From Mobula hypostoma (taxonomy: Eukaryota), in NCBI RefSeq assembly GCF_963921235.1, contig NC_086097.1, positions 139,564,001 through 139,628,000 of the forward strand: 64,000 nucleotides of DNA, in the 5' to 3' direction. This document shows, one piece after another, positions 8,814 through 60,785 of this stretch (the first letter of the stretch is position 1; every line of letters begins with the position of its first letter). Below the pieces are notes generated by a model, which saw only the letters and a program-made list of their open reading frames with translations, searched no databases and was not told where the DNA came from. The translations under genes were made by a program, and so were the position numbers.

Positions 8814-8920
8814 CATGACTGTTTTTTTGATCCTATGTGAAGGGCCGGGGTACTCTGATGAATACAAATCTGTCAGAAACAAAGAGTTGATGAGCGTCGA
8901 CTTTCCTAATCCTGATTCAC
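8814..8920 (-). CDS. SEPTIN7: Septin 7, exon 4 ([36 protein letters not shown]), GTPase G1/P-loop
   Basis: 107 nt with acceptor tatgttgcag| and donor |gtatgt. The phase-1 start fits exon 3. It carries the [10 protein letters not shown]-loop and the SEPT7-type [12 protein letters not shown]. Confidence 0.97.
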
Positions 8921-44500: not shown

Positions 44501-45074
44501 GCCTTTCTTAGTGACTAACAATACTTTCTTGGGCATATTTAACAAATTTCACACTGGCCAAGCCTTTTGCAGCTATGAATAATCCAGTAAATATCAGGGA
44601 AGTTAAAATTTCCCATTAATAATATTCTATCTGTAATCTCTCTCTATACACCTGCTCCTCTAATTCCCACTGACTATTGGGGTGGGGGGGGGGGGGAGGA
44701 CTGTTACAACATAGTCCCATCAAGCCGAATATCCCCTGGTTTCTAATCTTATCCATATGGTCTCTCTGGATAAGAGATTTCACAGGCATACTGTAGTATA
44801 TAGACATGTTAGTAGTATCATGGTCAATCACCCCATAAATTGGAAATCATCCAATTTCAAACTGTAAGCAGTATTATGATTTCACTCACAATGCTAGTTA
44901 CAGCCAAGCAATTATCAATAACTTAGCAACTACCATATAGATTACCTTTACATAAATGTTCCACAGAGCACAGAAAACTATTCTAATGTTAAGTTCCCAT
45001 GTAATAAAGTCATTGCCCCACCTCAAAGATTTAAGACAAACGTGCCAAACAGAACAGACATCATTTATAAATTC

Positions 45075-45695
45075 AAGAAACTAAAGAAATTTGGCCTGTC
45101 CCCTAAAACCCTCACTAATTTTTATAGATACATCATAGAAAGCATTCTTCTAGGGTGCATCACAACCTGGTATGAAAGTTGTCCTGTCCAAGACCGAAAG
45201 AAGCTGCAGAAGATTGTGAACACGGCGCAGCACATCACACAAACCAATCTTCCGTCCTTGGACTCACTTTACACCGCACGCTGTCGGAGCAGTGCTGCCA
45301 GGATAATCAAGGACACGACCCACCGAGCCAACATACTTTTCGTCCCTCTTCCCTCCAGGAGAAGGCTCAGGAGCTTGAAGACTCGTACGGCCAGATTTGG
45401 GAAAAGCTTCTTTCCAACTGTGATAAGGCTGCAGAACGGATCCTGACCCGGCTCTGGGCCGTACCCTCCAAATATCCGGACCTGCCTCTCGTTTTTTTTT
45501 TTGCGCTACCTTGCTTTCCATTTTTCTATTTTCTATTTATGATTTATAATTTAAATTTTTAATATTTACTAATTTTTACCATTTTTAATTATTTAACATT
45601 TGTAATCCAGGGAGCAGGAAGTGCAGAATCAAATATCGCTGTGATGATTGTACGTTCTAGTATGAATTGTTGGCGACAATAAAGTATAACGTATA
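45075..45695 (+). mobile_element. Young Rex1/Babar LINE 3' end
   Basis: Uninterrupted ORF (TLTNFYRYIIESILLGCITTWY...SFFPTVIRL) with CpGs retained and the tail caataaagtata. Confidence 0.9.
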
Positions 45696-46289
45696 GTTAA
45701 ACGAATGTGGCTACCCTGTCTGACCCAAACCCCTTTTCTCAGATATTACACCATTATAATTATCCACTGCAGTTAACTTTCAAAGTCAAATCAATATCCC
45801 ACAAAATTAATTTCAGCCTGAGATATTCTGAATGTTCCAATAGTGCCAAGTTTGCAGTGGTGTAATACAGCTCAAAAACAGGCCTCCTTGCACCCAGCTG
45901 ATCTCTGCCAGTGTTTGTGCTACACAAAAAGACTAAATGCTAGAAACTGGAAAAAAAAAATGCTGTAAACACTCAAAGTCAGACAAACTTTGTGTAAACG
46001 GAAATGTCTCAGGTTCAAGATCCTTCATCAGAAGTGTTTCTAACATTCTGTTCCTTCCTCCACTCACTTTTTAAACCCCTTTCAAAACATCTTTGTGTCC
46101 TTTCTCATATCAACTTGAAATTAGAAACTTTAGACTGATTTAAATAATGTAAAGCAAAACAGAAAAATAGGAAGACAAAGGCAGATTAAAAATAATTCAA
46201 GTGCTTTGAATTTAAGAGGCAAAATGGAAAATATATCATGAGCTTCATCAAAATTATATGGCATGAGAGAGTGAGGTCTATGCCCATTG

Positions 46290-46540
46290 GACAGAGCATA
46301 GTAAGTAACTTGACACTATGACAGCTCAGTCACCGTTCTGGATGGAGTCTCTGTACGTTCTCCCCATGGAATGTGTGGGATTTCTCACGTCCTCCAGTTT
46401 TCTCCAAAGATGTACCAGATAGGTTAGTTGGTCACTAAATTGTCCCGTGATTAGGTTAGGGTTAGTTGGGTTTGTTGGGAGTTGCTAGGTTGGCATGGGG
46501 CCAGAAGGGCCAACTCCTCAGTGAATTGCTAAATAAATAT
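46290..46540 (+). mobile_element. V-SINE (HE1-like), decayed
   Basis: tgtacgttctcccc...tccaaagatgtacc...aaattgtcccgtgattagg core, as in 57943-58212. Confidence 0.65.
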
Positions 46541-47117
46541 GAAGTTCTCTTTAATCATGTCTCTTTTCAGGATCATAATATCCAGTTTAATGGAATTATT
46601 TCCTTTCTTTTAGCAGAGTCATCACAAATATCTAACACCGTCTATCACTAGGAATGATCCAACTTGAACCGTTTATACTCCTGGAGTTCAACGGTTTTGC
46701 TGATCTGAAAAGTACATTTGTTTGATTACTATCTTGCTTCAAATAGAATGGGGTTCCAATGACTCAGTTGTCAATAAATTTTCACCTTTAGCCACAAGGT
46801 ACATCTCCTGTAGGCACTATTCAAGTGACAGGATAAATTTATCTCTTCATAGAGGTTTCAAAAAGGAATCTATCCTCAGTCAACAACCAAACATGGATAA
46901 CCGACTTACTTCCTTTAATTCACAGGGATGTGAGCAGAACACTCTTAGCTAAAATTCATTTGTTGGGGAAATAAGCCTGAGATATTCAAGTATATGATTC
47001 AGGATTACATACTGCATATACTCCTCAACCTTTCCACCAGTTTCTCTTCAACAAGGTCTCTAATAACAAAATGACAATTAAATGATTTCCATTTTCAATA
47101 TATTTTAAATTACTTAC

Positions 47118-47220
47118 CCACAACCATCAATGTGAATTCAAATCCTCTCTTCACAGACTTTCTGTACACTTGATTAGGTAGGTTTGCAAACCCCACATAT
47201 CCTTCAAGATTCTTTTGTTG
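47118..47220 (-). CDS. SEPTIN7: Septin 7, exon 3 ([34 protein letters not shown]+G)
   Basis: 103 nt with acceptor ttatgttatag| and donor |gtaagt. The translation matches the SEPT7 polybasic region leading into the P-loop. Confidence 0.97.
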
Positions 47221-47412
47221 CTATAACATAATTTAAAAAATTAGTTTCTACAGCAGAAACAATTAATATAACACTGACATCAAAACAAACTCAGGAGTAG
47301 AGAGCCAAAACTTAAAATGACAATTCACATACAACACGCTGTGTCAAGAAAGCCAGACAACTTCGCATCGAGTATAGTTGGAAAAAAGAAAGGTCAGGTT
47401 TCAAATACTTAC

Positions 47413-47414
47413 CG
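47413..47414 (-). CDS. SEPTIN7: Septin 7, candidate 2-nt microexon (exon 2, CG)
   Basis: Minus strand reads tttacaacag|CG|gtaagtat. It joins exon 1 (phase 1) to exon 3 (phase 0) as ATG G|CG|CAA CAA = M-A-Q-Q. There is no AG for ~133 nt upstream, and a CCTAAC branch motif plus pyrimidine tract sits at 47528-47549. Confidence 0.75.
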
Positions 47415-47549
47415 CTGTTGTAAACCCATAGGTCCAGAGTCCAGAGATGGTCATGAAACATCCATGTGGCACAGCAAGGATTGGAAATAAGATGCAGTAT
47501 AATAACCAGCATCATCACCAACAGCATGAAACAAAAAGAAAATGTTAGG
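47415..47549 (-). promoter_or_regulatory. Distant branch point, polypyrimidine tract and AG-exclusion zone upstream of the microexon
   Basis: Minus strand CCTAAC (47544-47549) is followed by attttctttttgtttc. There is no AG between 47550 and the acceptor AG at 47415-47416. Confidence 0.65.
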
Positions 47550-47609
47550 CTTCAAATATAACTACTGTACATCACTTACTCTATATTTAAACATATCAAA
47601 ATCACTCAT

Positions 47610-48155
47610 ACATTTCAAATGTCTGGAAGTTATGTTGGAACTTTATAAAACTCTAGTTAAGCCCCACCTGGAGTACTGCATACAGTTCTAGTCACCCCAT
47701 TATAGAAAAGGTGTTGAGGCTTTGGAGACAGTGCAGAAGATTCACCAGGATGCTGACTGGATCAGAGGGGGTTTACTCTGGAGCGTCAGAGGCTGAGGGG
47801 GGAGATCTGATAGAGCTTTATAAGATTATGAAATGCATAGATAGAGCAGACAGACAGTATATTTTTCCCCAAGGTTGAAATATCTAATACCAGAGGGCAT
47901 TCATTTAAGGTGAGAGGAAGTAATTTCAAAGGAGATGGGAGGAGCAAGTCCCTCCCCACCCCCACAGAATGGTGGGTGCCTTGAATGCACTGCCTGGGGT
48001 GGTGGTAGAGGCAGATACATTAGGGGCTTTTAAGAGACATTTAGATAGGCACATGAATGTAAGGAAAATGGAGAGATATGAAGAGATTAGTTGATCACTT
48101 GATTACTAATTTAATTGATTCAAAGCGCCTGTTTCTGTGCTGTACTGTTCTATGT
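47610..48155 (+). mobile_element. CR1 LINE 3' fragment
   Basis: LELYKTLVKPHLEYCIQF and TRGHSFKVRG motifs, plus the tail ctgtactgttctatgtt. Confidence 0.85.
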
Positions 48156-48534
48156 TTCAAAACGACAGTAATTTATATAAATTTTAAAATGAATTCTCTT
48201 ACTCCTCATAATAATTCACAACACAATCCAGTTCAAATTAATGAAAGTCAGTCCTACCCCTCATCTGCAATACAGCAAGATTTAACAAAAAGAGTAACCT
48301 GAATTTTCATTCTAGAAGGGACCTTTTAGCTCTGGATTTGGATGAAATCATTCACCGGAACAGCTGTACATGACTGGCATTTTGCAGACTACCTGCTCAT
48401 AACTTCTTAATCTTACACTTCCCTAACATTCCACCTTGAATTTCTTGAGCTAATATGTTAGTCATTCTATTCTGGAATGAACCTGGAACCACAACAGCAA
48501 GAAAAGGTTTTAGCCAACACTATGGACCTTTAAG

Positions 48535-48797
48535 CCGGCTGGTGGCGCAGTGACATCAGCGCCGGACTCCGGAGCGAAGGTTCCCGAGTTAGAATCCAGT
48601 CGGGCCGCTCCCAGGCATGCTTTCCATCTGTGCCAGGTTGAGTGTCGAGCTCGCAACATGGCTTCATAAAAAAAAAATCTGCGCTGTGAAAAGTACGTGG
48701 GGGACCACTCACAAATCTTTCCTCCAAGACAACCACTTGAAAAAGTGGTCGCCAAGGCTCTGGTACTCTGGTAGAGTATGGCACACCAAAAAAAAAA
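48535..48797 (+). mobile_element. Young tRNA-derived SINE with A-tail and 11-bp TSD
   Basis: A-box tggcgcagtga, B-box gagttagaatcc, CpG-rich head and A10 tail. TSD ggacctttaag at 48524-48534 and 48798-48808. Confidence 0.85.
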
Positions 48798-48919
48798 GGA
48801 CCTTTAAGGACCAATGTCACACTGGTTCTTTTTAAAATCACCATTTGTTAAGTGCATATACAATGTTAATGTGCATATTTGCTCCATTAGATCCAAGATG
48901 AAGAGCTCCAAAAGTATTA

Positions 48920-49640
48920 AGAATGTAAGAAATAAGAATAGGAGTCAGCCATTCTCTAACTCAAGACCACCATACACTACAATCAAAGTTGAATCAATTT
49001 TCTGTACTCCCCTATAAACAGAAAACTGGAAGTCACAAGCAAAATGCAAGCAGTAGGCCATTCAACATTCAAGCCTACTGTCCTATGCAATACAATTCTG
49101 TTTCATCATCCAAACTTAGATCCTACTTTTGCCTTATAATCCTTGACCACTTTTGCCACAAAATGCAACTTCAACTGCCCTCTGTGGTTGAGATTAAGAT
49201 TTTCGCTCTCCAGTGAATTTCTCATACTACTTAGTTTACTTGGTAGACCGTACTTGGTTTACCCCTTGTCCTTGGGCTATGATGGCCCCTAATGGATCGT
49301 TATCAGAAGTTGCATAGTAAGTTCCAGTATCTAATCGGCCCGGTCTTGTTAGAATTTTGTAGGTTTCTATGAGATCCCCTCGCAGTGTTCTAAACTCCAG
49401 TAAATCAAGCCTAAATGATTCACTTTTTCTTCATACAACTGTGCTACCACCCCAAGGACCGGTCTAGTTAAATTTTGCTGCACTTCCCCAACAGCAAGAG
49501 CATCCTTCCTCTTGGAGACCACAACAAATTTTCACAGTATGACCTCACCAAAGTATTGTACAGTTGCAGTAAGGCAGGCCTAATCCCGTAGCCCCTTCTC
49601 TCACCATGAAGGCCAACATATCATTTAGCTTCTGAACTGC
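48920..49640 (-). mobile_element. Old CR1 3' fragment
   Basis: Reverse strand gives LEFRTLRGDLIETYKIL-like (ggtttctatgagatcccctcgcagtgttctaaactccag) and MLAFM-like segments. Confidence 0.65.
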
Positions 49641-50959
49641 CAGTTTCACCTCCACATGCCACACCATACTTTCTACTTTGTCCAATGGACCACATGGTCA
49701 CCTTCCTTCAAGTGCCATAAACTCCCACTAGTCGCAATATTGACTAAAACTAGTATTCCACACAGCCAGATAATAGTAAGGATAAAACGCCTAAGGAATT
49801 TTTAAAACTCAAACAGAAGTTCCTTAAAAAGAAAGGAAAAGCTCCCCATTCTGAATCACTGCCAATTAGCTAGTTAGCTTCGTGTATACAAATCAAATCC
49901 CACATTGTGAAGCAAATTTCTTCCACTCAGAAGTTTTCTATAATTTGTTACCATACTGCTAACTTTGGCTGACATTTTTATGGACAAAAGGACCTTAGAA
50001 CTGAAGAAATCACCTCATCTGCCAGTTGTTTTTCTCCAATAGGCTAAAATCACTAACATCTAACTGCAACATTCATCTTCTACTATTACAAATATTAATA
50101 CAGATTACCTGAAAAATCTGAATAATTAAGATGCAATACAAGCTGCTGGAAATTTTGACAAATGAATTGAGTCAGAAAGTTGAAGACTAATGAAATAAAT
50201 ATAAAAAATGAACCAAACTGATCCAATCAATTATTTCCCTTGGTCTATTCAATTTCCTTAAAATACAAAATTTCATAAATTTCAATTCAAGGTTACTTAA
50301 GGTAGGAGAAAGGCAGATGAATATTTGAAGATGTTTTTGAGGCTACATGTTCCAATTAGAAGCTAAATTTTCCATCAATGTAAGCTTTTCATTTGTTCAA
50401 ATGTATTTATAATATATACATTGAAACATGGAGAAATGCATCATCTGCATTAACTAGCACACCCGAGGATGTGCTGGGCCAGATCAGAAGAGTGGCCACA
50501 CATTACGGCACCAACATTGCATTTATTGACAAGGTTTAGCAAAAATTAGATGATTCAACCAAAATCTTGTTTGAACTACAGAAGCTGAAAGCTTACAGCA
50601 GGGAAAGGCAACAATAAATCGTTGTTAGCACTAGAACAAACTTGAATCTAATGTATATGACGACAAACTTCCACAATTCACAAATTCGATATGCTTCTTT
50701 AACTCTTCAGTTTATTGCTGGTTCATGATTTTGATGGGCCACATGGATTAAACACAGGAAAAGAAACTGGTACTGTCCATGTGTTAATTGTGACTTTGAA
50801 TGGGCAACGTGTCTCCCAAAAATTACTAAGCTTCTGACTCCAAGCTCATCCTCCTCGCAACCCAGCCATAACATTTCTGTTTTGCCCATCATTCAGTGCA
50901 CTTTCCATTTGATTGGGAGCAGACACTTATCCAAAAGCCAAGGTTTAAGAATCAACAGT

Positions 50960-52190
50960 TATTAATCAGAATCAGGTTTATAATCAGTCTTATTATGACG
51001 TGAAATTTGCTGTTTTGCAGCAGCATAATGCAAAAGGATTAACATGATAGTGCTCACATGTTCATGAACAGCTCAAAAATCTATTGACAGGGATGAAGCT
51101 GTTTTTGAATCCGAGTGTGGGTTTTCAGGCTCTTGTAGCTTCTACCAGATGGTAGTTCCGTGAAGAGGGGATTTCCTGGATGGTGAGAGTGCTGAGTGGA
51201 TATCACCTTCTTGAGTCACTAACTTTTGAAGATATCCTTGAAAGGTGGGTGGGGGGGGGCAGGGATAAGGATTGTACCCATGATGGAACTCAGCCTACAA
51301 TTTCTGCAGCTTCTTACGATCCTCTGCATTGGAGGATCCATGTGATGCAACCATTCAGAATGTTCTCAAGCATACATATATACAAATTTGCAAGTGTCTT
51401 TGCCAACACACCAAATCTCTTAAAACTCAAGCTGCTGATGTGTCTTCTTCATGATTGCATCAATGTGCTGGGCCCAGAACAAATCCTCCAAGATGCTGAC
51501 ACCCAGAAACTTAAGGCCATTCATCCTTTCCACCACTGACCCCTCAATGAGGATAGGTACATGTTCTTCCAAATTTCTCTTCCTTAAGTCCACAGTCAAT
51601 TCCTCGGTATTGCTGTTACTGAGTGCTTGAAGTTGGATTTTTGCAACACCACTCAACCAGCCAATCTATCTCACTGCTGTATGTACATCACATTGCCATC
51701 TGAGAATACCAACAACAGTAGCATTATCTGCAAATTTATTGATGGTGTTTGAGCTGTGCTTAGCCACACAATGAGTGTACAGAGGGCAGATTAAGCACAC
51801 ATCATTGAGCCATGTCTGTGTTGAAAGTCAGGAAGATTTTAATCACCAATCAGTACTGACTTGTCCCCTGTGAAGAAGTCGAGGTCTTGGTGCAGACGAA
51901 GGTAGTGACCCAGGTTTAGAAGCTTAGTGGTTAATACTGAGGGAATGATGGTATTGGACACCAAGCTACAATCAATAAACAGCAGCCTAACAAGCATAGC
52001 TTGTTGCATAGGTGCTCCAAAGCAGAGTGGACAGCCAGTGAGCTTGCATCCACTATAGATCTGTTGTGGTGGTTGGTGAATTATAGAGGGTCTGAGTCCA
52101 AGGCCTTGCTGAGGAAGGAGTTAATTCATAGCCATAACCATAACCAACTTCTCAAAACACTTAATGGTAGTTGTGAGTGCTACCAGTAGA
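50960..52190 (-). mobile_element. Rex1/Babar LINE fragment
   Basis: ORF 51420-51656 contains TEELTVDLRK...FLGVSILEDLFWAQHIDAIMKK. Confidence 0.8.
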
Positions 52191-55100
52191 TAATCACTGA
52201 AGCACACACATCATGAATTGAGACAATGGACAAGTAGCCAGATTCCTGACACCTGCCCACTGAGAACTATCCTTGCAACTGGTAATCCTGAGTTAAGATT
52301 AGAGCATAAGCGTTCCCTCAAAAACTCTAGCACAAATGATCAAAGTACTGGTACACAAAAGCTCGACACAATTCGGGCCTCAATTATTTCCAAGAGACTA
52401 CTTCTGTAAAAAGTGATCAGGTTTCCCACTCTGCCTCGAACATTCCTGAGTAAACAACCCAGGTTTGTCCAACTTCTTGTTAAAGGTCATACCCTCCAAT
52501 CCAGGCAACATCCTGGTGAAGCTTCTCTGATGCCTCGACATCCTGCCTGAGATGTTTTTCTTTTTGCTGTCTCAATGGACTGGATGGCATGCAAACAAAA
52601 GCTTTTCATTGCATCTCAATACATACAACAATAATAGACAAATACCAATAATACATGAAAGTATTGCTGAAATGCATAACCAAGGGCAAAACTGTGCCCA
52701 AAACATGCCAGGCTTCCTTTTGTTTCTACTTCGTTATTACAAACACGTAGTAAATTACAAAAGCTTGAACTTGAGAACTCCTTTGAAAATGTAAGAGAAT
52801 TTGTGTGACATTGGATTGTCAAAGTCAGGTGTTCTAGTGAACCACCATATTAGTTACAGAAAAGTGGGGCAGCAGGTAGTGCCGCTGCAGTCTCAGAGCT
52901 CAAGTAACCTAGGTTCAAACCCAACCTGTTTTTCTGTCTCTGACAACTTAAGATATTCATCGTGTCCTCCAATTACTTCCCATATCCTAAAGCTTCACTG
53001 GTTGGTAGACAATAAATGTCGGTTAGAAGTACAATATAATATAGGCAGATGGAAGTACAATCAGGGTTAAGTTGATGGGTATGAAGGGGAACAGACATAG
53101 GGAAATAATTATGAATGCCAGTGTAGATCTAATGGGTCAAATTGCCACTTATGTAAGGAACAACAAGAATCATAGGTAATGTGATATGATTGCTTTTGCT
53201 GAATTTTATCTATTTAAATCTGGACTGTATTTTTCTGTAGAAAATAATTTCTCAATTATAATTAGGCTTCTTTTAGTTTTGCCATTAGACAAACTAAATT
53301 AATACACACTGCAAGTCCAACTACTCTGTTGGGATATATGAAACCATTAATTAAAATCATAACCCCATTAAGAAATTATTTAACTGAAAGCCAAGTCCTC
53401 TGCAATCATCCTTGCACAAAGTGATCTGCCAAATGTATGGCCAGAGAAATTTTGTTTTTGTAGTCAGAGAAAACAATGCCAAACCATACACAGAAGGACA
53501 TTTACAATGCTTAAGGATTCTTTAGTACATAAAGTTTAAATGTAACCAAAAGAAAATCCACCTGAAATCCTACACTGCTTGAATTAATTTACTACTCAAT
53601 CAACCTAACTGCCAACTTAAACATTTATAATCTGTCTTAAAACTAAAAGTGACATTCTCTTTCACTAGCCAGCTGAACATAACCCAATTTCCAGAATAAA
53701 GATTAAAAAAAACAGAATGTAATCTACCGAACAACGGCACATTGAGGATAAGGGAAAGCTTAAGTCATCACTTAAACTGGCAATGATAGACATGACCTGA
53801 AAGTTTTTTTGCAAGACCACAAGTGAAGCATCACAAGAACTGTTTATTCAAGGCAGATCTACTAAAGGATACCATTTCAACATTCTGCAAGGACTAACTG
53901 CAGAAGTTTTCCCACCCTGTACAACTCAGAACCTCTCAGAATCCCAGGAACACTCTGCACTTCAATTTTGTCAGCTACCAGAATGAACATTCATTAGTAT
54001 TGTTACCAAGTGCCACAAAATAGAATGCAAGACAACAGGCCCAGTATAATCTACGTCTTCAACCCCCACAAGATTTTTACTGTGTGAATGTCAAGGAAAT
54101 AACCAGCCTGAAGAAGAGATGGCGAATAGTCAGGGACTAAGATCAAGAAAGGAAAGGAGAAATGAAACCAGCAAAAGGGAGGTTGAAGGGGATTGTGAGG
54201 CGGCCAAAAAGAAACAAGGGGGGAGAGAGAAAGGAGAATAGTAGGGTAGAGAAGAAAGTTTTGAGAGTACAGGGAGGGATTCTGGGCCAAATTAAGCAAA
54301 AACTGTTACCCAGGGAATATTAATAAAACCATTGGTGCATTTGAGTAAATCCAGAGAAGTAGTAAAAGGAACAGATGAAATGCTGCCAAAGTTAAATGAA
54401 GGATAAAGACTTATATGGAACATTAATGTTGGCATGGACTGGCTTCTTTTTAAACGTGCAAATGTTATTTTTTAGTTCATAGAATATTTAGAGTATAGGA
54501 GATAATTTAGCCCATGCAGGTCTCTAATTCCATCCTTCAGCATTTTCTCCATAACCTGCAGATCTTTCTTACTATTTATTCAATTTCTTCTTGAAGACTA
54601 TATTAGAGCCTTTCTCCACCATGCCTGCAGGTAGCAAGTTCCAGTTTTCAATAATTTTCTTCCAAAATGTTTCTTCGTGTCACTATGAATTGTCTTCCCT
54701 TTATTTTGTGTCTATTTTGCTATTCTCACAAAACCCAGCCTGATTATTCAGATGATATTATTACTATAATTCTAATATTTGAGAGGTCAGTCTAAAATTT
54801 GAGACTTATTATAACCACTCAAACAACTTAAGTAGGGCTTTATATCTAAATGAATACAACTCTGATCATCCTAACCAACATTTACCAACCACTAATTCTC
54901 TTGCTCCCAAACCGAATAAAATTATACCCAGGATTTCATCTATTGAAATTTTTGCCATTGAAGACACAAAAATGCTCTTTAACTACTTATTTTGCATCTT
55001 ATGCTTCCTTAAGTTTTGCCTTAAATTTCATTGCATCCTGATGGATTTCTCGTAATGAGCAAACAAACTAAAGCTTCACACCATTAAGCAATATAATAGA

Positions 55101-57942
55101 ATTTAACCAGATGGAATGGTAGAACTTTGTATCCTCATTTCAAAAATGGCTCATGCTACCAACCCAACAGAATCTACATGTGCACGGTAACCCGAGAAAC
55201 ACTGGCATGGAGAACAGAAGCATTCAACAAACTGGCACAAGTTCCACTTAACATAGCAATAATGTACAAGTATGTTATAAAATTAAAGCTGGCATTTTAA
55301 TGGGGGCATTTTGCTTAAGAACAACAGGTAGAAAGTTTCAGGAAAAAAATCCGAAAGCTCAACCTTAACATCTGAAGGGAAATTGCTTATTTTTTTTTAG
55401 AAAGTCCAAAACAAAAACTTGATCAACAAACTTATGGCTGATTGAATCACTGTGTCTCTAAAATCCAAAGGCAACAAGTCCAACAAAAAATGTCCAGTTA
55501 TTCAAACCTAACTGTAGTAGTTCAATAAAGTTACCAATCACATTTGATTTCCCCACTTTTATAAGGAAGCTCTTACACAGATCAGATTGGACAGGGGTTC
55601 AAATATAGACCATCTCACAACTAACCTTTTAGCTATATTGACAACTTGCAAGGAGAAAACTTTCAACATAATGCCCCAATTCTAATGTAGTATCTCAATA
55701 ATAAGACCAGTTAATGAGTATTTCCTTCTAGTGCCATATATCTAGTTATAGTGGTACTATGGTCAGTACACCTCTAAGGTTTAATAAATCTTCATTCTAT
55801 TTTCACTGTCTTCAATTATACAATATACTCTTAACTTTAATCATCACTGATAGACCAAACGTAAAATTCAAACTCACATTGGCTAAATAACAAGACCTCA
55901 ACTCTGCCAAGAATTCAAATATTGCACTCTACCTAAGATTGCCAAGGCTGCTGTTTTAGGTAGTGGATCTTGAAGAATTTAGTTCCAATCTGAAACATGC
56001 CACCAACGAGAGAGAGAGCCTCCAAGCGAGAAAGAGAAACCAGATTTTAAGAGCACAAACAAAAATGCTGGTTTACAAACAAACTGCCTATTCCCACATC
56101 TATTGCTAGTGCAAAAATGCCAAAAGGAAAGGTGCTGCAGCTGGTCTGCCAGACATCACAGTTTAATTTCTACAGCTGTACAAGCTTCATACAACTGCAC
56201 GACTACACAAATTGAACATGCCACTACTGCAGGGAGCATTTTGCTATATAAACTGATCCATTGTCTAGCTTAAAGACAAAGAAATATGTTGAATATTTTG
56301 ATGAGGCCCAAGACTGTTTATTTTGTAAAACCTACATCTTGTATCTGGCACAACTATATACCCTTTCAGGTACCGGAACGTATAGGAAATAAAATGCCGC
56401 AACCCAATTAATTCCTTTTAAAACTGAATCTAACTACTCTCCTTGTAAATAGCTACATTCAACCATAACATCTGCATTGATGAGTTGATAGCTTGTTATA
56501 ACTATGAAACTAAAGCATATTACATTGTAAGAAATTGACATAATAATCAAAACTATAACCTACTAGGTACAAGAAAAAAACATAAGGCAAACTAGGAATT
56601 TGGTTTTGCTGAGCCAGAGACTGCAGATGCTAGAATCCAGAGAAACAAACAATCTGCTAGAGGAACGCAGTAATGATTGAAACCATAAGGTTGAGCAACA
56701 TCTGTGGGCAAGGAGAAATCATCGACATTTTGGACTGAACCCTACAACAGGATGGGTCATAACCCTATTTTAAAAATTTAATTAAAATATTTTAGTACAG
56801 TTAATACTAAAATTGGAATCTCTGAATCTGGAACTGTAGATGCTGAAAAAAAATCAGTTAATGAGTACGTATTTTACACTTGAATGATCATTGTTTAGCA
56901 TTAGGATGGCCCTATTGAACAATACAGTTTAAAATATGAAATAAGAGAGTCATCTGCATTGACTTCAACATGAGATGGCATATGAAAAAGTAAATCTTTT
57001 AAAGAAATCAGTAACTGTAGCAGAATGGCTCAAGATTTGTTTTACAGATAGATAAACTGAAGGAAGTCATGTGGTTTGCTATGTCTCAAATGCTTAGCAG
57101 GTCTCATAACTGCAGCTCTCCACTGCATTCACATTTAACATTCTTTCACAGCATACAGAGTTTAAACATTTTCAAAGAATCAATGTGGACTAAAATAATG
57201 CAATATTTGAAAATCTGATCAAGCAATACTTAAAAATCACGATAGCTAATAATCAATAAACCAAATCCTTCATAGGCTGCACAACTACCACAGGAGGCCT
57301 TTCATGACGACAAGTTGATTAGAATTCAATAAGCATATGGGCTAACATACACACACACACACACAAAAAGAGGTTGTATAAAATCTTTACAAATCAAACA
57401 TTAGGTCTCCTCGCCAATGCTCTTTGCAGTTCATGGTGGATATTTCAGGAAGGATGTCAAAGTCTTAAATTTGCAGAGGATTTGCCGAATGGATGCAAGA
57501 TATATTAAAATTCATTTATATGGAAAAATAGAGACATTGGCAAAAAACTTAAGATATATAGATAGGTTAGATGGGCGAGCCAATCTGACAAATAGAACAC
57601 AACATAATACTGTCCACTGTAACAGGAAAAACATAAAGGTTATTCACTGCAGAGTTGAGAGATATGGAAGGATTTGGGTAACCCAATTCATGATTCACAA
57701 TGATAAAGTAAAACAAGTATCAGGGAAGCTAACACAACTTCTCATTAACTTTTGAAGTAAATTGAATAGAAACGCAGGGAAGTTGCACTTAAGTTGTAAA
57801 CAGTACTGGGGTGCAAACATTCTAGAGTATCATATGCAGTATTTTAAAGGGAGGATGTTAATGCACTGGAAGTGGTGAGAGGTTCACTGCAATAGTATAA
57901 AAAACAAACTGCTGGAAGAACTTAACAGGTCAAGCAACAACA

Positions 57943-58212
57943 GGGTGGTACAGCAGCATAGTGGTTAGCACAATGCTTTACCGTACAGGCGATCAGGGTT
58001 CAATCCCTGATGCTGCCTGTAAAGAGTTTGTACATTCTTCCCATGAACTCGGTTTCCTCTGGCTTCCTCCCACAGTCCAAAGACATACTGGTTGGAAGGT
58101 TAACTCGTCATTGTAAATTGCCCTGTGATTAGGCTAGGGTTAAATTAGTGGGTTGCTGTGTGGTGTGGCTCAAAGGGCCGGAAGGGTCTACTCCACACTT
58201 TATCTCAATAAA
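57943..58212 (+). mobile_element. V-SINE (HE1-like), near full length, nested in Penelope and old LINE debris
   Basis: tRNA head (agcatagtggttagc, gggttcaatccc), V-domain ggtttcctctggcttcctcccacagtccaaagac, and tail tatctcaataaat. Confidence 0.85.
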
Positions 58213-59075
58213 TCTGCCGGGGGTGGTAGTGCTAGTGGTTCGGGATCTGACAACATTTCACGCCACAGCCCTGCATTGACTGGACTGATATCCAGAATGA
58301 GCAGGTAGTCTTGTGATGATAGGTTGCACAGGCTCGGCCTCTATCTGCAGGAGTTTAAAAGATCATGAGCTACCTTGGAAAAAAATACAAAATCTGGAAT
58401 GCTCTGGGCAGGCTGGATGTGGAGCTGATTCTTGTGAAAAGAACTGAGGTCACTGTTTAAAATCTGGTCACCTATTTAAGTCAGAGACAAATCAAAAATT
58501 CTCCATTTGTGAGATGCATAAGATTCTTGCTCTAAGGGTGGTAAAACCAGAGACTATAAGACTTTCAAAAGTCAATAGTAGAAACATTATTGGTAAGGGG
58601 TTGAAATGTTAACTAAAGGGAGACAGGGATGCAGAGTGGAGATTACTGTCTGATGAGACTACTACTTCCTTCTTCTCATTTGAATGTTTGCAGCAGTATT
58701 GCTAGAGAAGGCCAAGGTAAATTGGGGCATTCAAAACTAAAAGAATTTGTGAAATGTTAAGGAAAGCGGAAACCATTTCTATTGACAAGGTGGTTGAGAT
58801 AATGAGAATCACCAAGAACAGAGATTTATGAATATACTTAGTCTGAGAAACGGCATAAAATGTACTTTTAATAAGAACTTTACAGAAAAAAATTGGATTA
58901 CTATTGGACAAAAAAATCACCAGATTATGGGAAAGCACAGGGCAATTGGAGAATTCTGCAAAGATTCCAATGGCCTCCTATATTGGAAGATACCACAATC
59001 TAAAATGTTAAGCTATCAAATTTACCACCACTCCATCCCCCAGTAAAAATTACAAACATAAGAACAGCAAATCAT

Positions 59076-59139
59076 AAACACAAGAAATTCTGCAGATGCT
59101 GGAAATTCAAAGCAACACACCCAAAATACTGGAGGAATT
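59076..59139 (-). mobile_element. Penelope-like terminal tail fragment with ~16-bp TSD
   Basis: cataagaacagcaaat (59057) and cataagaacaacaaat (59140) flank aaacacaagaaattctgcagatgctgg... Confidence 0.75.
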
Positions 59140-59897
59140 CATAAGAACAACAAATTCATTACATAGTTTCACTAACAAAGAAATCATAAAAAAATCAACA
59201 TACAGACTTCGTAATCAGATAAAAATAGGCATGTCACTCACTAGCAACTAATTCATTCATAAAATGTAAAGGGTTAGAGACAGAGAAAACTTCGCGGAAC
59301 GGACTTTGGGCTGATTTAAAAGAAGGACCTTTTCCTATCTTAAGTCTACACTTCGAAAACCGGTTACAAGTTGGGAATCAGAATGAAACTGTTCTTGTTT
59401 TTACGAGACCGCTTCCACGTTAAACAGGAAAGGAGGGAGGTATGGGTCTTCCCGGTGCGGAACTCACTAAGCTGGTCTCACTCTGAGAGTCAACTCAAGC
59501 GCAACGGACCGAGTGGCCCCTTCCTGAAGCCGCAGCCACACATCATGCAGCCTGTAAGGAATAGACGGCTGGGTGGGTCCCGCATTGCCGCCTTCACCCG
59601 GGGTACAGCATTCCGACCCAGCCACGGCCCTGGCGCAGAGCCATTCCACCCCGCCGCCCGCTCTGACCTCAGCGGTTAGGACCGTGAAGAGTGTGGGGAG
59701 ATACCCAGGCCCGAGGGCGCACCGGACTACGCAGGGCCCGGCCCCTCCCAGAGCCGCTACTCTCCGGCTCGCCGACAACAGTAGTAGCCGCCCGCTATCC
59801 AGCCCCGTTTCCCCCCCGGCGTCTGAAGCCACACTTAGCGCCCGGCTGAGCTCGGAGCACCCCCTGGACGCGACGGTCGTCCACCGGCAGTACTCAC

Positions 59898-59934
59898 CCA
59901 TGCTGGCAGCCGCAGATCTGTCACAGCCCGACAT
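59898..59934 (-). CDS. SEPTIN7: Septin 7, coding exon 1 (MSGCDRSAAASM + G, ends in phase 1)
   Basis: ATG at 59934 lies in a CpG island. The 37 nt are followed by the donor G|gtgagt (plus actcac, 59892-59897). The peptide resembles the vertebrate SEPT7 N-terminus as I recall it (MS...RSAAA...M). Confidence 0.88.
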
Positions 59935-59950
59935 TGTGCTCTACATCACC

Positions 59951-60021
59951 GCCCGCCAACAGAACTCGCGACAGGTCCGACGCCAAACGAGAGTTCAGCG
60001 ATGAAACTCGCTCTCGCGGTG
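59951..60021. promoter_or_regulatory. E2F-like site and two BANP-like (TCTCGCGAGA-type) motifs
   Basis: gcccgccaa at 59951-59959, actcgcgaca at 59964-59973 and tctcgcggtg at 60012-60021. All are imperfect matches inside the CpG island. Confidence 0.4.
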
Positions 60022-60033
60022 TTAGCGCGTACA

Positions 60034-60055
60034 GGGCATTCTGGGTACTGTAGTT
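60034..60055 (-). promoter_or_regulatory. ZNF143/STAF (SBS) site with ACTACA extension
   Basis: Minus strand AACTACAGTACCCAGAATGCCC matches the ACTACA-n-CCCA-nn-ATGC housekeeping promoter motif, 100 bp upstream of the ATG. Confidence 0.75.
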
Positions 60056-60080
60056 ATTGTGGTCAATGCTGAACAACGTT

Positions 60081-60210
60081 TTTGATGAAGGGTCTCGGCC
60101 CGAAACGTCGACTATTTACTCTTTTCCATAGATTCTGCCTGGCCTGCTGAATTCCTCCAGCAGTTTGTTTGCGTTGCTTTGGATGTGCAGCATCTGCAGG
60201 TTTTCTCGTA
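60081..60210 (+). mobile_element. Penelope-like terminal repeat inserted in the SEPTIN7 promoter region; partial hammerhead motif at 60082-60113
   Basis: ttgatgaagggtctcggcccgaaacgtcgact...cagcatctgcaggttttctcgt. Confidence 0.8.
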
Positions 60211-60289
60211 CCTGTGACCAAAATTCCAGTCTGCTTTGCGCCAGCCCGCCAAACCAGGTCTGCGTTTGCGCAGTGACTAAATTTTCAGC

Positions 60290-60785
60290 GCAGGTTGAGG
60301 GGAGATAGGAGATTGAGGTTTGGGGCGGGAGGAAGGACCTCTGTGGAGGGAGGGGTGTGTTTTGGGGAGTGTAGGGTGAGGGAATATAGAGGAGGGGGCA
60401 GGGGGTTTAGGGTGGATGGGAGGAGATTGGGGTAGAGGGGAGGGGAAGTGTTATGTGAGGGTTGGAGAGTGGAAATCGGGGAGGTGAATGCTTGAGGAGG
60501 TTGGGGTTGGGTGGAGGAAGACACGAGGAGGGAGACAGGTGGAGAGGAGGCAGAGGTTGGGCTATGGAATGGTTGGGGGTTAGAGGGGAGGGGTGGGTTG
60601 GTGTAGCGGATAGGTGGATTTGGAGGAGGGTAATGGGAGGAATAAGGGTAGTGATAGAGAAAGGCTGGTTTGGGCAGGGGGTGAAGAAGGGATGGGGAGG
60701 GATGGTTTCGGCAGAAGAAGGGATAAGATTGGATGGTTTGGTGGAAGAAGGTTGGATGAAGTATAGAGGGTGTAGGTAGGGAGAA
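60290..60785. repeat. G/A-rich low-complexity tract
   Basis: Dense GGG/GGGG runs and almost no C on the plus strand. Confidence 0.8.

What the first reader, a model, noticed from the sequence alone, without database searches (positions are those of the whole stretch)
47415..47551. Distant branch point and ~133-nt AG-free zone serving the microexon
Seen: the minus strand has no AG from 47549 down to the acceptor at 47415-47416. The zone opens with CCTAAC (branch A at 47545, ~130 nt from the acceptor) and then attttctttttgtttc, while the acceptor itself has almost no pyrimidine tract. The spacer has several TGC/YGCY motifs and a ctctgga tandem. Established: a long AG-exclusion zone with a remote branch point and tract marks distant-branch-point introns, where the spliceosome scans to the first AG. 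Inference: moving U2/U2AF 130 nt away avoids a steric clash with U1 at the donor, so a 2-nt exon is defined like a ~130-nt one.
Basis: partly seen in the sequence, partly recalled or inferred. Interest (0 to 1): 0.7.

Follow-up and report, generated by a model that had tools for sequence, protein, structure and literature searches.

The report
Distant branch point, SEPT7 2-nt exon
The septin-7 gene of this vertebrate splices in a two-base exon that keeps its reading frame, and the 133 bases in front of that exon contain no AG and open with a predicted branch point, a layout repeated in a distant vertebrate, which likely lets the splicing machinery assemble far enough away to recognise so small an exon.

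Summary
Observation confirmed. The gene is SEPT7 (minus strand). Exon 2 is two bases (CG, 47414-47413). RNA contigs from 4 of 4 runs join exon 1-CG-exon 3; skipping would shift the frame. Upstream, 47549-47417 has no AG (133 nt; shuffle P 0.003; 13 AGs in the 134 nt before it). The best U2 match (branch A 47545, -131) and strongest U-tract sit at its 5' end; the acceptor tract is weak. A distant vertebrate (L002) has a CT exon with a 125-nt AG-free zone, best U2 match at -102 and adjacent tract, although the sequences do not align. Four close relatives keep the zone (low power). Branch use is not mapped: a -37 candidate exists, and one contig ending beside the predicted branch is only a hint. 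YGCY/TGC motifs are not enriched; the ctctgga tandem is dispensable. The steric rationale is published for MPC1 and neural microexons, and the human 2-bp SEPT7 exon is catalogued; no paper on its branch point was found. This scan noted similar layouts before in placozoan and protist genes. Verdict: new, extreme member of a known kind.

The parts
59898..59934 (-). SEPT7 exon 1, coding part (37 nt from the first ATG; ends one base into a codon)
   Evidence: RNA joint at 59898 in 4 of 4 runs
59892..59897 (-). intron 1 donor GTGAGT; intron 1 spans 59897-47415 (12,483 nt)
47550..47551 (-). last AG before the zone; lost in one relative, which lengthens its zone to 145 nt
47544..47550 (-). predicted distant branch site GCCTAAC, branch A 47545 (-131); best U2 match in the zone (5 of 7)
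   Evidence: -3 base C>A in 1 of 4 relatives, core TAA kept in 4 of 4
47528..47542 (-). U-rich polypyrimidine tract directly after the predicted branch site
   Evidence: no difference listed in 4 of 4 relatives
47417..47549 (-). 133-nt AG exclusion zone
47450..47456 (-). rival proximal branch candidate TCATGAC, A at 47451 (-37), 4 of 7 U2 match; a TGAC with A at -37 is also present in L002
47432..47446 (-). 7-nt tandem repeat; one copy missing in one relative, so likely dispensable
47415..47416 (-). acceptor AG of exon 2 (CAG, weak tract)
47413..47414 (-). 2-nt exon 2 (CG); completes an Ala codon with the last G of exon 1
47407..47412 (-). consensus donor GTAAGT of intron 2 (intron 2 = 47412-47221, 192 nt)
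47118..47220 (-). SEPT7 exon 3 (103 nt); 34 of 34 residues identical to Septin-7 chains in PDB
8814..8920 (-). SEPT7 exon 4 (107 nt), used only to check the frame

Best explanation
SEPT7 intron 1 ends in a 133-nt AG-free zone before a 2-nt coding exon that is spliced into the mRNA, and it likely branches at the distant A47545, where U2AF65 and U2 would assemble on the adjacent U-tract about 130 nt from the exon 2 donor, after which the spliceosome would take the first downstream AG. Shown: exon identity, its presence in RNA contigs, frame dependence, the AG-free zone with its sharp upstream edge, and the same layout in a distant vertebrate. Established knowledge (Gooding 2006; U1 pairing to donor positions -3..+6 is recalled): long AG-free zones with a 5'-placed branch site and tract mark distant-branch exons. 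With a 2-nt exon, donor position -3 is the G of the acceptor AG, so U1 and U2AF35 would need the same nucleotide. Inferred: the distant strong branch site plus tract makes early recognition independent of the AG and restores a U2-to-U1 span of 133 nt here and 104 nt in L002, near the roughly 150 nt of an ordinary exon (median internal exon 124 bp plus median branch distance 28 nt). AGs are purged from the spacer because any would capture the second step and add frame-shifting sequence.
For: Exon real: exon 1-CG-exon 3 joint in 4 of 4 RNA runs, 3 organisms, 3 studies; skipping gives a stop within exon 3. Zone: 0 AG in 133 nt versus 13 in the 134 nt upstream; shuffle P 0.003. Best U2 match and best tract lie at the zone's 5' edge. 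Independent ortholog L002 (19 of 34 third codon positions differ in exon 3): CAG|CT|GTAAGT 1991 nt before exon 3; 125-nt AG-free zone, the longest of 351 gaps; 15 AGs in the 135 nt upstream; TACTAAA (6 of 7) at -102 with 17 of 20 pyrimidines behind it. Only 838 of 67,334 human exons have AGEZ >=100 (PMC1431707). The layout 'gap >=100 + branch match >=5/7 + tract in the first 40 nt' occurs in 2 of 10,149 AG intervals examined, both SEPT7 exon 2 acceptors (thresholds chosen after seeing the data). Zone AG-free in 4 of 4 close relatives (126-145 nt). Precedent: lariat-mapped branch points at -68/-64 before the constitutive 4-nt MPC1 exon (PMC9929638). Weak hint: one mismatch-free unspliced contig of run X9 spans 47283-47542 and stops 3 nt 3' of the predicted branch A.
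Against: No lariat is mapped in any species; none found for the human intron in the readable, truncated parts of three branch-point catalogues. Proximal candidates exist: -37 in the window and -37, -23, -12 in L002. Gooding estimates that only one-half to one-fifth of AGEZ >=100 reflect distant branch points. In three minigenes with both sites, deleting the distal branch had only a modest effect (PMC5378181). The L002 zone alone is pyrimidine-rich, so its shuffle P is only 0.05. The close-relative test has little power (P about 0.48 of no new AG from 7 substitutions), and one relative weakens the branch -3 base. The distant comparison rests on one locus with no RNA evidence; 2 of 3 loci did not reach a microexon. 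The steric step is untested.
Confidence: 0.6

Rival explanations
1. The distant branch site is used, but as a timing device rather than a spacer. It slows intron 1 so that intron 2 is removed first; the CG is fused to exon 3, and intron 1 is then spliced to an ordinary-sized composite exon.
For: [quoted passage not shown] Intron 2 is short here (192 nt) with a consensus donor. Not exclusive of the best explanation.
Against: Intron 2 is 1991 nt in L002, so shortness is not conserved. Delaying intron 1 invites exon 1-to-exon 3 skipping, which is frame-shifting, and no skipped joint is among the 15 of 221 joints shown.
Confidence: 0.2
2. A proximal branch point (TGAC, A at -37) does the productive work; the upstream CTAA plus U-tract acts as an enhancer or a minor branch site, and the lack of AG follows from composition or from constraints on protein-binding sites.
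For: TGAC with A at -37 in both window and L002, kept in 4 of 4 relatives. Distal sites contributed modestly in three minigenes. L002 zone shuffle P 0.05.
Against: With a branch at -37 there is no reason to exclude AG from -37 to -135, yet both species do and AG density jumps right upstream of the distal site (13 and 15 AGs). The window zone is 19% A and 19% G, with 4.7 AGs expected. The proximal sites match U2 less well (4 and 3 of 7) and have weaker tracts.
Confidence: 0.15
3. The zone is a chance AG-poor stretch with no role in splicing.
For: 5 other minus-strand gaps in the window are longer; the sequence does not align between the window and L002 (global P 0.22, local P 0.69).
Against: Recurrence at the orthologous acceptor in L002 as its longest gap; none of the other 24 gaps >=100 nt has the branch-plus-tract opening; most of the longer gaps are purine-poor.
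Confidence: 0.04

Closest known systems
Distant-branch-point exons with AG exclusion zones (Gooding et al. 2006, PMC1431707; PTB exon 11, GABBR1 exon 23, alpha-tropomyosin exon 3)
   Same: AGEZ >=100 nt, best branch consensus and tract at the 5' end of the zone, layout conserved without alignable sequence.
   Different: Those examples are ordinary-sized and often alternative exons; here the exon is 2 nt, frame-essential and the dominant form in the RNA contigs. The branch is not mapped here.
MPC1 4-nt constitutive microexon (PMC9929638)
   Same: Non-triplet ultrashort exon, long upstream intron, distal pyrimidine tract, same steric hypothesis.
   Different: MPC1 branch points are mapped at -68/-64; SEPT7's predicted site is about twice as far (-131, -102) and the exon is half the size.
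Human SEPT7 exon 2, 2 bp (PMC6549324; PMC9929638)
   Same: Same gene and exon number, 2-nt length.
   Different: PMC9929638 describes the human 2-bp exon as alternative and in the 5'UTR or as giving N-terminal variants, and gives no branch point. Here it is coding and needed for the frame from exon 1.
Neural SRRM4-dependent microexons with extended branch-to-AG region (PMC12871342, PMC10250204)
   Same: Branch point pushed upstream, weak acceptor, strong donor, proposed relief of steric clash.
   Different: Median predicted distance there is 45-47 nt; those exons are mostly frame-preserving, neural and UGC-dependent. Here there is no TGC within 56 nt of the exon and no TGC enrichment.

Membership tests
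Distant-branch-point (AGEZ) exon | AG exclusion zone of 100 nt or more before the acceptor | tested here: met
   133 nt; 125 nt in L002; 126-145 nt in 4 of 4 relatives
Distant-branch-point (AGEZ) exon | best branch consensus with adjacent pyrimidine tract near the 5' end of the zone | tested here: met
   -131 (5 of 7; 16 of 20 Y) and -102 in L002 (6 of 7; 17 of 20 Y)
Distant-branch-point (AGEZ) exon | no good branch candidate in the usual 18-40 nt window | tested here: inconclusive
   weaker candidates at -37 (window) and -37, -23 (L002)
Distant-branch-point (AGEZ) exon | zone conserved in orthologs and not due to a repeat | tested here: met
   L002 and four relatives; only a 15-nt tandem inside the zone; one distant locus only
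Distant-branch-point (AGEZ) exon | branching at the distant A shown by lariat mapping or mutation | not testable with these tools
   only contigs were available; no human record in truncated catalogues
Constitutive non-triplet microexon (MPC1 type) | exon under 10 nt, not a multiple of 3, present in mRNA | tested here: met
   2 nt, in 4 of 4 RNA runs
Constitutive non-triplet microexon (MPC1 type) | inclusion near 100% across tissues | tested here: inconclusive
   only the included joint is listed, but contigs drop rare forms, 15 of 221 joints are shown and tissues are not on record
SRRM3/4-dependent neural microexon | UGC motif close to the acceptor | tested here: not met
   nearest TGC at 47471 (-57); no enrichment
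SRRM3/4-dependent neural microexon | neural-specific, SRRM3/4-dependent inclusion | not testable with these tools
   tissue not on record for the runs; frame dependence argues against tissue-restricted inclusion
Structure-bridged distant acceptor | stable hairpin bringing branch point and AG together | tested here: not met
   folding z -0.44 and 0.11 in L002

The most novel reading that the evidence does not exclude
SEPT7 intron 1 branches at the distant A and then waits as a lariat intermediate with intron 2 still attached, because U1 on the exon 2 donor covers the acceptor AG; the second step follows only once U1 has left or intron 2 is gone. The vertebrate-wide 100-130-nt spacer would then be an obligatory ordering device for the shortest natural coding exon, and a portable module for defining exons of near-zero length.
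Probability: 0.15. Interest if true: 0.7.

Novelty: new member of a known kind. Interest (0 to 1): 0.38.

Why it matters
How the spliceosome recognises exons far below the usual size limit is an open question. This is a natural, deeply conserved extreme: a 2-nt coding exon whose donor footprint overlaps its own acceptor, with a predicted branch point two to three times farther away than in the published microexon cases. It gives a clean minigene test of whether branch-to-donor span, not exon length, is what exon definition measures. If the human intron has the same layout (not tested), AG-creating variants up to about 130 nt into SEPT7 intron 1 would be frame-shifting and lie outside the usual splice-region windows. 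The concept itself is not new.

Tried and rejected
No genome is held for the window, so there is no genome-wide AGEZ background. The exon 3 pattern gave 3 loci in metagenome contigs and none in genome or viral contigs. L001 (335 nt upstream) and L003 (1293 nt upstream) end before any AG-NN-GTRAG microexon candidate with a long zone and are uninformative. Sequence-level conservation between the window and L002 is not significant (global P 0.22, local P 0.69; a shared 10-of-11 match near -57/-61 has P 0.31). No stable fold. No Rfam match in 45000-60500 and no tRNA in the window. TGC/YGCY enrichment rejected. Two other AG-NN-GTRAG strings in intron 1 (55623, 51679) have other 2-nt contents than the RNA insert and are not the exon. 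Human branch points, searched with gene ids and hg19 coordinate prefixes that I recalled: Taggart Table S1, cut at 4 MB, no hit (one search covered only figure files); Pineda File S2, cut at 4 MB, 23 of 23 rows starting 3587 are not on chr7, while two chr7 rows at 35903194 and 35913222 appear (one search found nothing with a phrase search); Mercer Data S2, no hit; no supplement for PMC6549324. The unread parts of these files, and bioRxiv supplements such as CoLa-seq, could hold the answer. Protein representatives: of 35 hits with residues before QQKNLEG, 28 look like read-through of the exon 3 acceptor, 6 end in another A and 1 ends in MVA; this is of little use. The X9 contig end at 47542 also coincides with the end of an A-rich tract on the plus strand, and X9 has other mismatch-free intronic contigs (53157-53334, 54684-54897), so it was not counted as branch mapping.

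Full report
Gene context. The exon at 47220-47118 (minus strand) translates to 34 residues identical to Septin-7 chains 2qag_C and 7m6j_C. Exon 1 ends at 59898 one base into a codon, exon 2 is CG at 47414-47413 between CAG and GTAAGT, and exon 4 lies at 8920-8814. With exon 2 the frame is open through exon 4; without it a stop follows within exon 3. The organism is a vertebrate; that it is a cartilaginous fish is my guess from recalled repeat types and was not tested.

The microexon is real. In contigs of 4 of 4 presumed RNA runs (organisms A, A, B, I; three studies) exon 3 joins exon 1 across 12,676 nt with one extra G on the plus strand. Together with the acceptor base absorbed at 47221 this reads CG on the minus strand. 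Limits: RNA status is a guess by the tool, contigs drop rare forms, 15 of 221 joints are shown, and in three runs other contigs also cover exon 3 with partners not shown. Constitutive inclusion is therefore likely but not measured.

There is no AG from 47549 to 47417; 6 of 3980 minus-strand gaps are 130 nt or longer, and 0.3% of shuffles of the zone lack AG. The 134 nt just upstream hold 13 AGs, so the zone has a sharp edge. The best match to the U2 consensus (recalled) among all As in the zone is GCCTAAC with A at -131, followed by 16 pyrimidines in 20 nt; the next candidate with U at -2 is TCATGAC at -37. The acceptor tract has 9 of 18 pyrimidines. The TGC and YGCY counts are within chance, and the strand has no unusual fold.

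Conservation. In DNA contigs of 4 related organisms the exon, the donor, the tract and the core TAA are unchanged. Seven substitutions and two deletions in the zone create no AG, and zone lengths are 126-145 nt. This test is weak (P about 0.48), one relative changes the branch -3 base from C to A, and one lacks a copy of the 7-nt tandem. The stronger test came from a metagenome scan that returned three vertebrate SEPT7 exon 3 loci. In L002, which differs at 19 of 34 third codon positions, a CT exon flanked by CAG and GTAAGT lies 1991 nt upstream; it would complete the same Ala codon. It is preceded by a 125-nt AG-free zone, the longest of 351 gaps on that strand, with 15 AGs in the 135 nt before it and TACTAAA at -102 followed by 17 pyrimidines in 20 nt. 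The two zones do not align significantly: the layout is conserved, not the sequence, as Gooding et al. describe for distant-branch exons (PMC1431707; passages, section 6). L001 and L003 did not reach a microexon. The combined layout occurs in 2 of 10,149 AG intervals (2 of 26 gaps of 100 nt or more), both at SEPT7 exon 2; the thresholds were post hoc.

Mechanism. Shown: exon, frame, zone, conserved layout. Inferred, probability about 0.75: branching at A47545 and selection of the first downstream AG. Inferred, about 0.5-0.6: the purpose is spacing. With a 2-nt exon the donor's -3 position is the G of the acceptor AG, so U1 pairing (range recalled) and U2AF35 binding overlap. A strong distant branch site and tract would let U2AF65 and U2 load without the AG, 133 nt (L002: 104 nt) from the donor, compared with about 150 nt for a typical exon (124 bp median internal exon, PMC6549324, passage; 28 nt median branch distance as cited in PMC9929638). 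Against: no lariat is mapped; proximal candidates exist in both species; only one-half to one-fifth of AGEZ >=100 are estimated to be true distant branches; distal branch deletion had modest effects in three minigenes (PMC5378181, passages). A timing model, with intron 2 removed first, is compatible with the same anatomy. One unspliced contig of X9 stops at 47542, 3 nt 3' of the predicted branch A, as a reverse-transcription stop would. It is a single contig, the tool states that contigs cannot show ends, and the end also coincides with a plus-strand A-rich tract, so it is only a hint.

What is known. Human SEPT7 exon 2 is catalogued as one of the two shortest exons (PMC6549324). PMC9929638 (passages; Discussion) mentions it as alternative or 5'UTR, maps branch points at -68/-64 for the constitutive 4-nt MPC1 exon and proposes the same relief of proximity. 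PMC12871342 (abstract and introduction; passages) reports predicted medians of 45 versus 34 nt for neural microexons with the same rationale and does not mention SEPT. PMC10250204 (passages) discusses steric hindrance and splicing order. bioRxiv 10.1101/2024.09.17.613571 (passages) finds donor strength more important than AGEZ length for SRRM4 microexons. PMC8632122 (passages) reports a C insertion in 103 of 146 human SEPT7 reads, which may be this exon misaligned (my inference). Nine literature searches listed no paper on the SEPT7 intron 1 branch point or zone; subscription journals are not covered, and the catalogues PMC5378181, PMC5959240 and PMC4315302 were searched only in single, partly truncated supplement files. 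Earlier AI notes of this scan record the same microexon on this window and similar layouts in placozoan and protist genes; they were not used as support.

Verdict. Real, conserved and most likely functional. It is a new and extreme member of two known kinds (distant-branch exons; ultrashort non-triplet microexons with an upstream-shifted branch point), and it is not an SRRM4-type microexon by motif. Interest 0.38.

Noticed in passing
window:47283-47542: A mismatch-free unspliced contig of run X9 covers the intron 1 end, exon 2 and most of intron 2 and stops 3 nt 3' of the predicted branch A (1 nt 3' of A47543). It may be a reverse-transcription stop, A-tract priming or chance.
   Followed up: partly
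window:47461-47471 and L002 at -61 from its exon 2: A 10-of-11 match at a similar distance from the exon in both species; not significant alone (P 0.31) but a candidate spacer element.
   Followed up: partly
window:47248-47249: A second TAG lies 27 nt upstream of the exon 3 acceptor and would be in frame; the predicted branch at -21 lies downstream of it and would exclude it.
   Followed up: no
window:59940-59945: An ATG-TAG start-stop element lies 5 nt upstream of the first SEPT7 ATG, and a second in-frame ATG sits at the end of exon 1 (59901-59899).
   Followed up: no
L001:336-438 and L002:2562-2664: Two different SEPT7-type exon 3 copies under one assembly prefix (24 of 103 differences), as expected for teleost paralogs; whether the L001 copy keeps the microexon is unknown.
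   Followed up: no
window:8921-47117: Intron 3 is about 38 kb; the stretches read (40000-64000) hold many LINE-like reverse-transcriptase fragments (identification recalled, not tested).
   Followed up: no
window:47220 (exon 3 start), protein library: 28 of 35 database proteins with residues before QQKNLEG appear to be read through the exon 3 acceptor, so gene predictions commonly miss exons 1-2 of SEPT7.
   Followed up: partly
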